Shown piece after piece: positions 31,801-34,800 of a DNA stretch of 64,000 nucleotides (position 1 is the stretch's first letter; every line of letters starts with the position of its first letter). Source of the DNA: Hydrolagus affinis. Taxonomy: Eukaryota. The DNA lies in the NCBI GenBank assembly GCA_012026655.1, contig JAAILG010001044.1, positions 1-64,000 of the forward strand. The letters run 5' to 3'. The position numbers were made by a program.

Positions 31801-34800
31801 AATGGTGCCATATGAACAATCTGAATCATGTCCATAGAAGTGAGTTGCCTTGCTCTAATGAGCCCCTATGGATCTCCCTGATGCAGCTGTATTGACATGC
31901 TCACTTAAGCTAATACACCTAGACCAAGATGCCTTGGTGCCTTGAGCACTGACAGTCTGGGATACTGACAGTGTATCTTGCTTCAATCTTCAAAGGAGAA
32001 GTGATTAGAATGTTATCATTACCATTCGAAACGTGATTTTCCTATTCCCTCTTGGCAGAGGTGACATATCTGTGAGATGTGGCCAGCAGATCGCAGCAGC
32101 TAAAGCCACTTCAAAGCTTCCCTTGAAATTTTTTTCGAAATCATTAGAACAATGTGTTCAGATCAACGCAGATAGGACCTGATGTGAAGGTCAGACACAT
32201 TGCAATAACAATCTATACTAATTAATCTACCTCTTCAAATATGGAGTACGCTTGTTTGGGATAAATTATACTGATTACATTACATAACACAAAAACAATT
32301 TTAGAAAAAAACAGCAAGGTTTCCAACATGGTTCTCAAAAAAATTAACAGTTGACAGAAAACAACGATATTTCCCAAGCACACATAGATACCTAACAACA
32401 AACAAGAATGCACTCACCTCTTCACGCAATTTTATCAACTGTGAACGCACAGAAAGATAAAAAGGAAAGAAATGGCAGGGATGAAACATCTGTCATACAG
32501 CAGGGTAGAACATTAACTATGACAATTTATCTGTTTACGTACTTAGTATTAAGAAATCATAGAAGAGTTCCTTTAAAGAACCTAAAAAGGCTCATGCAAA
32601 GAGAATTTTCAGAAGCATATTTTGAAAGAACAAAGATTAGTTCTTCCTTTGTCAACACAGATGGTTACAATCATTTTTCTCTTGTTTAGTGCACAAGAGC
32701 TATGTTTGTCGCATGCTTCAAAGAAAGAGGGGGGCTTTACAGCAAAGATCTTTTTAAGAGACGTAAAATGTGTACAGTATCATTTCAAATTGTTGAAGTA
32801 GAGATGGCATTGTCATCGTCCATTTAACAGCTGCGATTAAAGACAAAGCGAAGCAGGCGTAACTGTGGGTCCAATATACACATTCAGAACATACACAACA
32901 CTGACAAGACTGACTGCATTGATTTACGCACAGATGTGGATTTTAATTGATTATAAACAAACTTGTGGTTAAAAAGGGACACTTTTAAAAAAAAAACACA
33001 TTCTGAAACCAACAGCGTGGGGGGAAAAGTGGACCATACAACATGCAACAGAGAGGTGGAGGGAGGCAGATTTCTGAATCTTTTTGAGCTGAAAATTGAA
33101 AGCACTGCAGCGGCGAAGGATAAATAAAGTACTTTTACTTCATAGGAGAACGTTACAAAATACCTAACAAAAATAACAGAGCTGCTGGCACTTACTTAAA
33201 AAGGAAAATCTACTTTTCCAATGATACCACTGACAAATGTTTTGAGGTTAGGAAGATGGTGCGAGCTTTTTCGGGTCACCACCTCAAATTGACCAGAATA
33301 CTTAACGGGCCAAAGTGCAAAACTACGCACTAGATGTGACCTATCCTCTCCAGTCATATCCATGAGAGGTACTATGAGGCGATGGCCAGTTGTTTTACAA
33401 TAGAATCTTAACAAAATGTGTTCTATCTTGTTTGTGCTGCCTGGCTGATTTTAAAGCTTCTCCATGGATTTGAGGGCGGCTTTAGTTTAGTTTATTTTCT
33501 GCCACGCTGAGGTACGTATTAATGCGTATTAACGGGGGGGCGGAAAAAGTGCTATTCAGATAGATAACAAGAGAATATACTGAAAGTTGCATTTAGTGGG
33601 CAATTGGACAATTGCGTTTTGCATTTTCTTCATTATCATCGTCATTAAGGACGGAGTTCTGCCGTTTCGGGTTATGATAATCGCAGGATTTTCAAACAAA
33701 GATTTTCAATATGGGTATTCGATACGAGTGGTAATCTGTTCTTTGTAACCTGAAAAATCTGGTGCGCGCTGGTTTGAACCAGCAGAATCTCTAGTGGCCA
33801 GACTGCTGCTGTGACTGAAATCGAAACTGCGCCGCAGTGTGTGAGATCCACGTGACACGCAAAACTACAGAATTATGAAAAGCGATAACGCCAATTCCTT
33901 CTCTGTCCGCATACAGATAACGAATAAATGCTGAACTCTATTAAATGTCCTTTACACATTATCGCTAGGTGAACACGCAATTTTCAGAACTCATAAAGGT
34001 TCTCCATTCATTTCGTTATAAATCCTCGCCATGTAACTAACAGATTTGTTGCTCATAATGATCTGCTCTGCCAGGGCTATATGAGATGATATTGACCTCT
34101 TTCAGATCTTTGGGAATTAAATTGACCAGTGCAAACCTCTGTGCTAAAACTGCAGTTTGGTGTATTCCGTGCACGGTAAGCCCTGTAGCATTATCGCTGG
34201 AGCTCACTACTTCACAAGTTTCGGCCGTATTACTTGCATTAACAAAATAAACAAAAACTTAGAAGCAAAGTTGGACATCTTGCAGATTTTGTCCTAAACT
34301 CGAAATTTGCCAGCCGAATATGAAAAAAGAATCTCCCCGATAAGGTTCTGCCCGCGGTCTTTGTACTATGATTAAAACCTAAACGGTTTTTAAATCGGAG
34401 GTTTTGTTGTTGCTTAGCTTTGCATTAAACAATGTATTTCCACTTGAGTTGCTGTTAATGCTGTTACTGAGCAGCTTGAGAAGACCTACTAGTGTCTGAC
34501 CTTCATCACCCTCGAGCCACCCACAAGGGTATGCTGATTAGTGGCCATACCTGGTTCTCGGAGGTATTCCCATCATCCCCCAGGAGCTCATTTCGAAGGT
34601 TTACCTCATCACTGTAGGCGATTCGTGACCTTTTCTGTAAACGAAAGGGAAAAAAAAAAGAGCAAAACTTGTGTTAGAAAGTAGGACTTACAAAATTAGT
34701 AGAAGTATAGTCTTCATACAGCGGCAGAGCCCCCTGATGGATTGCCTCCACCGCACAGATCTACTGTGGCAGTTTACTGTTCGGTGGTGAGATTCATGTT

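What the first reader, a model, noticed from the sequence alone, without database searches (positions are those of the whole stretch)
32418..32438. Neural VTI1A-beta microexon (LIKLREE) intact in a probable cartilaginous fish
Seen: a 21-nt frame-preserving exon with cag| and |gtgagt sites lies between the two constitutive exons and encodes LIKLREE. Known: this is the brain-specific 7-aa insert of synaptic-vesicle Vti1a-beta in mammals. Inference: the insert is unchanged since the jawed-vertebrate ancestor. Exons this small are often missed by annotation.
Basis: partly seen in the sequence, partly recalled or inferred. Interest (0 to 1): 0.75.

Follow-up and report, generated by a model that had tools for sequence, protein, structure and literature searches.

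The report
Known VTI1A neural microexon, intact orthologue
The 21-base exon is real and is the counterpart of the well-known seven-residue neuronal insert of the vesicle-fusion protein Vti1a, so this is a correct but ordinary identification.

Summary
On the minus strand, 32438..32418 reads LIKLREE. It is bounded by ...ttcacag| and |gtgagt and sits in frame between two VTI1A exons, 34634..34551 and 29778..29694. The downstream exon matches the Vti1a SNARE helix of PDB 2nps_C (26 of 28 residues, E 6.4e-11).

Chance is excluded. About 1e-5 such peptides are expected in the 4,772-nt interval. Of 137 frame-preserving AG..GT candidates there, only this one has an 8/9 donor plus an 81% pyrimidine tract.

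The cis layout matches SRRM3/4-dependent microexons: a UGC at -11, a pyrimidine tract upstream of it, and the best U1 pairing of 289 GT sites.

The exon is already known. It was described in 2000 and is conserved between human and zebrafish. It has been deleted in zebrafish twice and is also used in pancreatic islets. A printed human peptide crosses the same junction into LIK.

Three things could not be tested here: the source taxon, the last four mammalian residues (recalled only), and tissue specificity.

Verdict: already known, low interest.

The parts
34551..34634 (-). Upstream constitutive VTI1A exon (84 nt, KRSRIAYSDEVNLRNELLGDDGNTSENQ). It encodes the linker between the N-terminal domain and the SNARE helix. 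Acceptor ...cgtttacag|, donor CAG|gtatgg.
   Evidence: Sequence and translation. Its last 14 residues match 13 of 14 residues of the printed human VTI1A peptide. No PDB hit and no Pfam hit for this 28-aa piece.
32481..32485 (-). Branch-point-like yUnAy (ttcat, A at -44). A second one lies at 32457-32461 (tttat, A at -20).
   Evidence: Pattern scan. No branch-point predictor was available, so this is only a candidate.
32442..32473 (-). Pyrimidine-rich 3' splice region (-35..-4, 81% C/T) with UCU at -32, -19 and -15.
   Evidence: sequence.
32447..32449 (-). UGC motif at -11..-9, between the pyrimidine tract and the AG. This is the position of the SRRM3/4-associated intronic enhancer element.
   Evidence: Position. 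Role of UGC from passages of bioRxiv 10.1101/2024.09.17.613571 and PMC12626420.
32418..32438 (-). 21-nt microexon encoding LIKLREE, phase 0 at both ends.
32412..32417 (-). Donor gtgagt (GAG|gtgagt). It matches 8 of 9 consensus positions and has a U1 duplex energy of -10.5 kcal/mol, the best of 289 GT sites in the interval.
   Evidence: The flanking exons' donors score -7.7 and -8.5.
29694..29778 (-). Downstream constitutive VTI1A exon (85 nt, RALLLDNTERLERSSRRLEAGYQITVET plus 1 nt). It encodes the N-terminal part of the SNARE helix. Acceptor ...ttttgtttcag|, donor CTG|gtaagg.
   Evidence: PDB 2nps_C Vti1a, E 6.4e-11, residues 1-28 aligned to chain 4-31, 26 of 28 identical.

Best explanation
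This is the orthologue of the alternatively spliced 21-nt VTI1A microexon that produces the Vti1a-beta isoform.

Shown: the exon, its frame, its splice sites, the identity of the host gene, and its position at the boundary of the SNARE helix.

Inferred mechanism at the RNA level: the exon is too short for ordinary exon definition, and its pyrimidine tract is set back from the AG. It is therefore skipped in most cells. It is included where SRRM4 or SRRM3 (the eMIC-domain proteins) act through the UGC at -11 and the upstream UCU-rich tract, helped by a very strong donor. That means neurons, and probably retina and endocrine pancreas.

Inferred mechanism at the protein level: inclusion inserts exactly one heptad directly in front of the first residue of the segment that forms the Qb helix in the early-endosomal SNARE crystal structure. 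The helical phase of everything upstream is kept. The Leu at insert position 4 lies 7 residues before the L4-L11-L18 series of the next exon, at a position held by Ser in the skipped form. The likely effect is to lengthen or stiffen the N-terminal end of the SNARE helix, or to create a small binding surface. This would bias Vti1a towards the synaptic or secretory vesicle pool.
For: - Exon anatomy and frame.
- Host gene: the downstream exon hits only Vti1a (1 of 1 PDB sequences at E<=10; 26 of 28 identical), and the exon's first residue aligns to chain residue 4 of the 81-residue crystallised chain.
- Same junction in human: the printed peptide NELLGDDGNSSENQLIK (PMC11450717, Table 2 passage).
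- Not chance: 9.7e-6 expected; 1 of 137 frame-preserving candidates has sites this good.
- Cis layout: UGC at -11, UCU at -32/-19/-15, 81% pyrimidines, best U1 pairing of 289 GT sites.
- What that layout means: passages describe stronger 5'ss, a Py tract and BP further from the AG, and a bipartite UCU_CUC..UGC enhancer bound by SRRM3/4. UGC was found in 57 of 73 and 51 of 71 SRRM3/4-dependent microexons. [quoted passage not shown] - 'Brain-specific microexon ... recognized over 20 years ago' (PMC12626420 passage).
- Splice variants are enriched in synaptic vesicles (PMC9197314 passage).
- Heptad reading: residue positions are taken.
Against: - No expression data exist for this organism, so inclusion, tissue pattern and SRRM3/4 dependence are all inferred.
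- There is no exact UCUC upstream (0 found in 150 nt), and only pattern-level branch-point candidates.
- No GCAUG lies within 300 nt downstream, so RBFOX help is not indicated.
- The full mammalian insert sequence was not seen in any call. The match is documented for 3 of 7 residues only.
- The protein-level effect is untested. Zebrafish lacking the exon show only mild phenotypes.
- The heptad argument was made by counting positions, not by a fold of the joined protein, which was left out.
- Pfam gave nothing for either 28-aa exon, as expected for such short pieces.
Confidence: 0.84

Rival explanations
1. The exon is real but constitutive, or broadly included, in this species rather than neural/endocrine-specific.
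For: Its donor is the strongest of 289 GT sites in the interval, and its pyrimidine tract is good at 0.81. Tissue pattern cannot be read from DNA.
Against: A 21-nt exon with UGC at -11 and the tract set back from the AG has the layout described for regulated microexons. The orthologous exon is neural-restricted and srrm3/4-dependent in zebrafish and human.
Confidence: 0.07
2. The exon is included mainly through another neuronal regulator (RBFOX, PTBP1 loss, NOVA) and not through SRRM3/4.
For: UGC is not strictly required for all SRRM3/4 microexons, and other factors bind the same region. There is no exact UCUC. PMC12626420's reference list cites a paper on RBFOX and PTBP1 regulating micro-exons (title seen only).
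Against: No GCAUG within 300 nt downstream, and the nearest upstream ones are at -159 and -278. Only 3 YCAY occur in 300 nt downstream. The zebrafish and human orthologue was selected for strong srrm3/4 regulation.
Confidence: 0.08
3. The match is a chance ORF or a decayed, no longer spliced relic.
For: None beyond the absence of RNA evidence.
Against: About 1e-5 expected by chance. It is the only 1 of 790 AG..GT candidates with sites this good, and both splice sites and the frame are intact.
Confidence: 0.01

Closest known systems
Vti1a-beta microexon of mammals (Antonin, Riedel and Fischer von Mollard 2000; reference seen, paper itself not held)
   Same: Same gene, same intron, same junction after ...SSENQ/...TSENQ, same 21-nt/7-residue size, and the same first three residues LIK as the printed human peptide.
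   Different: Nothing was found to differ in the insert. In the flanks, the window has T for S in the upstream exon (13 of 14 against the human peptide) and 2 of 28 differences from the crystallised Vti1a chain. Residues 4-7 of the mammalian insert are recalled, not seen.
Zebrafish vti1a microexon (VastDB EX0084665; PMC12626424, PMC12626420)
   Same: An orthologous, conserved, neural, srrm3/4-regulated microexon in a vesicle-transport gene.
   Different: The zebrafish sequence could not be seen, because it is in supplements that are closed. The deletion phenotypes are mild: reduced telencephalic activity and altered social behaviour. These are known only for zebrafish.
SRRM3/4 (eMIC)-dependent neural and islet microexon programme
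   Same: Length within 3-27 nt, frame-preserving, UGC close to the 3' splice site, pyrimidine tract set back from the AG, strong donor, and a host gene in vesicle trafficking.
   Different: No exact UCUC repeat, only UCU triplets in a pyrimidine tract. The regulatory response is untested here.

Membership tests
VTI1A gene (Qb-SNARE Vti1a) | Coding sequence matches the Vti1a SNARE helix | tested here: met
VTI1A gene (Qb-SNARE Vti1a) | Upstream linker exon matches VTI1A | tested here: met
   Window NELLGDDGNTSENQ against the printed human VTI1A peptide NELLGDDGNSSENQ..., 13 of 14, compared by eye. PDB and Pfam gave nothing for this piece.
VTI1A gene (Qb-SNARE Vti1a) | Full architecture: N-terminal three-helix domain, SNARE motif, C-terminal membrane anchor | not testable with these tools
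   No other VTI1A exon was found in the window by degenerate, recalled motif scans. A translation with stops was not accepted for an exhaustive scan. The joined model was not built.
Vti1a-beta insert | 21-nt, frame-preserving cassette between the linker exon and the first SNARE-helix exon | tested here: met
Vti1a-beta insert | Insert peptide identical to the mammalian one | tested here: inconclusive
   The first 3 of 7 residues (LIK) agree with the printed human peptide. The other 4 rest on recall. 'LIKLREE' is in 0 searchable papers and the 2000 paper is not held.
Vti1a-beta insert | Neural (synaptic-vesicle) isoform expression | not testable with these tools
   No RNA data for the source organism.
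SRRM3/4-dependent microexon | Length 3-27 nt | tested here: met
   21 nt. Definition.
SRRM3/4-dependent microexon | UGC between branch point/pyrimidine tract and the AG | tested here: met
   UGC at -11, with others at -39 and -64. Feature described.
SRRM3/4-dependent microexon | UC-repeat or similar pyrimidine tract upstream of the UGC | tested here: met
   81% pyrimidines over -35..-4, with UCU at -32, -19 and -15. There is no exact UCUC. One search accepts a 'similar polypyrimidine tract'.
SRRM3/4-dependent microexon | Strong 5' splice site | tested here: met
   8 of 9 consensus positions. U1 duplex -10.5 kcal/mol, rank 1 of 289 GT sites, against -7.7 and -8.5 for the flanking exons.
SRRM3/4-dependent microexon | Long branch point to AG distance | tested here: inconclusive
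   yUnAy patterns with A at -44 and at -20. No branch-point predictor was available to choose between them.
SRRM3/4-dependent microexon | Inclusion responds to SRRM3/4 | not testable with these tools
   Needs a minigene or knock-down experiment.
Source organism = cartilaginous fish | Sequence placement among vertebrate genomes | not testable with these tools
Internal clues are not diagnostic: GC 0.378, CpG o/e 0.50, and a tRNA-derived SINE. The window is not human: its exons differ from the human peptide and the crystallised chain, and its repeats are tRNA-derived SINEs.

The most novel reading that the evidence does not exclude
The insert is not a passive spacer but a strictly invariant extra heptad. 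Its Leu at position 4 continues the 7-spaced Leu series (L4, L11, L18) of the N-terminal extension of the Vti1a helix, replacing a Ser at that position. In neurons and endocrine cells it would lengthen the Qb helix at the end where SNARE assembly begins, changing assembly kinetics, partner choice or sorting. If the source really is a cartilaginous fish, that surface has been frozen for the whole history of jawed vertebrates. The constraint implied would be far stronger than the mild zebrafish deletion phenotypes suggest.
Probability: 0.25. Interest if true: 0.45.

Novelty: already known. Interest (0 to 1): 0.15.

Why it matters
For annotation, the finding gives exact coordinates of a 21-nt coding exon that gene predictors can miss, together with the two junctions to look for in RNA-seq.

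For biology it adds little. The VTI1A microexon, its conservation among vertebrates and its control by SRRM3/4 are all published, and neural microexons in general are reported as conserved across jawed vertebrates.

What remains open is what the seven residues do. [quoted passage not shown] An intact copy with the full regulatory layout in a distant vertebrate would modestly strengthen the case for a precise molecular function.

Tried and rejected
- Pfam on the two 28-aa exons: 0 families each at E<=10. The pieces are too short, so this is not evidence against VTI1A.
- PDB search with the upstream exon: 0 hits.
- Literature string 'LIKLREE': 0 papers.
- Antonin et al. 2000 by PMC id: not held.
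- Search for the remaining VTI1A exons with recalled degenerate motifs on both strands: only 2 hits and 11 hits, all in stop-ridden or unrelated context, none convincing.
- A 15-kb single-frame translation sent to the PDB search was not accepted because of 268 stop codons. I did not pursue that route further. 'No other VTI1A exon in the window' therefore rests on the motif scans only.
- Ten of the longest ORFs outside the SINE copies, out of 257 ORFs of 60 aa or more: 0 Pfam families. No other gene is evident.
- Rfam at gathering threshold: only 7 tRNA-model hits, which are SINE heads. ARAGORN called 2 of them.
- RBFOX motif: no GCAUG in 300 nt downstream.
- Taxon: a 15-nt stretch of the SINE tail appears in 0 papers. 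No tool can place the window among vertebrates.
- Zero-layer and heptad literature check: searches gave nothing specific on Vti1a layers, so no layer numbers are claimed.
- Not done, by instruction: joining the exons for a search, a fold or an atlas look-up.
- Not available: the search for homologous proteins, the search of protein representatives, metagenome and viral contigs, and paper supplements. Supplementary file 1 of PMC12626420 lists the mouse and zebrafish microexon sequences and would settle the peptide comparison.

Full report
**1. What is in the sequence.**
On the minus strand, the 21 bases 32438..32418 read TTG ATA AAA TTG CGT GAA GAG, which is LIKLREE. They are preceded by a pyrimidine-rich stretch ending ...ctttctgtgcgttcacag and followed by gtgagt.

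Upstream by 2,112 nt lies an 84-nt exon, 34634..34551. It encodes KRSRIAYSDEVNLRNELLGDDGNTSENQ and ends on a full codon. Downstream by 2,639 nt lies an 85-nt exon, 29778..29694. It encodes RALLLDNTERLERSSRRLEAGYQITVET plus one base and begins on a full codon. Both the skipped and the included product stay in frame. The window contains no N.

**2. The host gene is VTI1A.**
The downstream exon, searched on its own against all PDB chains, hits one sequence only. [quoted passage not shown] The exon's first residue aligns to residue 4 of the 81-residue crystallised chain. The microexon therefore inserts directly in front of the segment that was crystallised as the Vti1a SNARE helix.

The upstream exon has no PDB match, and neither 28-aa piece reaches any Pfam model, as expected for fragments this short. 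Its C-terminal 14 residues agree at 13 of 14 positions with a human VTI1A tryptic peptide printed in a retina proteogenomics paper, NELLGDDGNSSENQLIK (PMC11450717, Table 2 passage). That peptide crosses the same junction into an extra exon beginning LIK.

The exons were never joined for a search, a fold or an atlas look-up.

**3. Chance is excluded.**
With the interval's own base composition, the peptide is expected 2.0e-9 times per position. That is 9.7e-6 times in the 4,772-nt interval between the two constitutive exons, and 3.2e-8 times with flanking AG and GT. It occurs once in the six-frame translation of the window.

The interval holds 790 AG|3-51 nt|GT candidates, of which 137 are frame-preserving and open. 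Exactly one, this exon, combines a donor matching 8 of 9 consensus positions with 81% pyrimidines over -35..-4.

**4. Splicing signals.**
The donor GAG|gtgagt has the most favourable predicted pairing with the 5' end of U1 among all 289 GT sites of the interval, at -10.5 kcal/mol. It is stronger than the donors of the two flanking exons, at -7.7 and -8.5. The 11-nt U1 motif and the splice consensus used here were recalled.

Upstream there is a UGC at -11..-9 (32449..32447), with further UGCs at -39 and -64. UCU triplets sit at -32, -19 and -15. Branch-point-like yUnAy patterns have their A at -44 and -20. There is no exact UCUC in 150 nt and no GCAUG in the 300 nt downstream.

This is the layout described for SRRM3/4-dependent microexons:
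- a stronger 5' splice site;
- a pyrimidine tract and branch point displaced from the AG;
- a bipartite UCU_CUC...UGC enhancer, with UGC found between the branch point and the AG in 57 of 73 and 51 of 71 such exons (passages of bioRxiv 10.1101/2024.09.17.613571).

**5. What is already known.**
[quoted passage not shown] The authors deleted it in zebrafish and found reduced activity, mainly in the telencephalon (passages).
- PMC12626424 lists it as VastDB EX0084665, one of 21 microexons chosen for sharp neural-specific inclusion, strong srrm3/4 regulation in zebrafish and regulatory conservation in human. Its deletion altered social behaviour mildly (passages).
- The same paper says neural microexons show 'remarkable conservation across jawed vertebrates'.
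- The bioRxiv paper tested microexon minigenes from 47 jawed-vertebrate species 'from shark to mammals'. It has no occurrence of VTI1A.
- bioRxiv 10.1101/2022.04.02.486809 names VTI1A among the genes hosting pancreatic-islet microexons (passage), so 'brain-specific' is too narrow.
- The 2000 paper itself is not held. The string LIKLREE is in none of the searchable papers.

**6. How it most likely works.**
Shown: an intact, frame-preserving 21-nt cassette in VTI1A with a regulated-microexon layout.

Inferred at the RNA level: the exon is skipped by default. It is included where SRRM4 or SRRM3 act on the UGC-containing enhancer, which means neurons and probably retina and endocrine pancreas.

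Inferred at the protein level: seven residues make one heptad, so the insert moves the N-terminal domain and linker away from the SNARE helix by one heptad without changing helical phase. Counting positions, the next exon has Leu at positions 4, 11 and 18, spaced by seven. The Leu at insert position 4 falls exactly seven residues before the first of them. In the skipped form, that position is the Ser of ...TSENQ. The insert may therefore extend the amphipathic helix at the end where SNARE assembly begins, or it may form a small binding surface. No fold of the joined isoforms was made, so this remains an argument from counting.

**7. Surroundings.**
No other VTI1A exon was found in the 29.4 kb upstream or the 29.7 kb downstream. 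This rests on scans with recalled degenerate motifs and is not exhaustive, because a long translation with stops was not accepted by the PDB search.

Ten long ORFs outside the SINE copies, of 257 ORFs of 60 aa or more, have no Pfam family.

The window is rich in a roughly 320-bp tRNA-derived SINE. There are 29 blastn HSPs, which I count as about 26 insertions, and a 7-copy alignment with 80% mean column identity. The SINE heads account for all 7 Rfam hits and both ARAGORN calls.

**8. Taxon and dating.**
'Probable cartilaginous fish' could therefore be neither supported nor refuted. GC is 0.378 and CpG o/e is 0.50. A 15-nt stretch of the SINE tail is in no searchable paper.

The window is not human. 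Its exons differ from the human peptide and from the crystallised chain, and its repeats are tRNA-derived SINEs. 'Unchanged since the jawed-vertebrate ancestor' therefore depends on two unverified points: the taxon, and residues 4-7 of the mammalian insert.

**9. Verdict.**
It is an orthologous copy of a published, conserved, SRRM3/4-type microexon, so it is already known and of low interest. Its practical use is as an annotation point and as a target for the junction reads listed under next steps.

Noticed in passing
window 406-61649; full-length copies at 1411-1750(+), 15937-16258(+), 17686-18005(+), 2834-3157(-), 7452-7767(-), 46051-46380(-): A tRNA-derived SINE of about 320 bp is scattered through the window. 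There are 29 blastn HSPs, about 26 insertions by my count, 67-90% identical to the copy at 17686. About 20 of them lie in 1-28353. Their heads give all 7 Rfam tRNA hits and both ARAGORN calls (Val-TAC, Met-CAT). The tail ends in an A/T-rich stretch. The family was not identified.
   Followed up: partly
window 28354-36887: No SINE HSP falls in the 8.5 kb that holds the three VTI1A exons, although copies abut it at 28060-28353 and 36888-36953. This could reflect selection against insertions near the exons, or chance. SINE density is also low in the right half of the window.
   Followed up: no
window 59725-60160, 6831-7075, and short pieces at 4255-4297, 25721-25761, 28595-28643, 44208-44251: A second dispersed repeat gives 6 HSPs including the query itself. 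Its ORF translations share an ...SFK..LK.LLFD... motif. Not identified.
   Followed up: partly
window about 10000-10350, 13700-13950, 12240-12480: CA/TG dinucleotide microsatellites, seen as THTHTH / CVCVCV runs in ORF translations. Some directly follow SINE heads.
   Followed up: no
window 32408-32412 (minus strand, +6..+10 of the microexon donor): UGCAU directly follows the donor (gtgagTGCATtc). It is one base short of the RBFOX UGCAUG motif. No full GCAUG lies within 300 nt downstream.
   Followed up: no
whole window: GC is 0.378 and CpG observed/expected is 0.50, against GpC at 1.10. This is moderate CpG depletion, compatible with a methylated vertebrate genome but not diagnostic of a class.
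   Followed up: no
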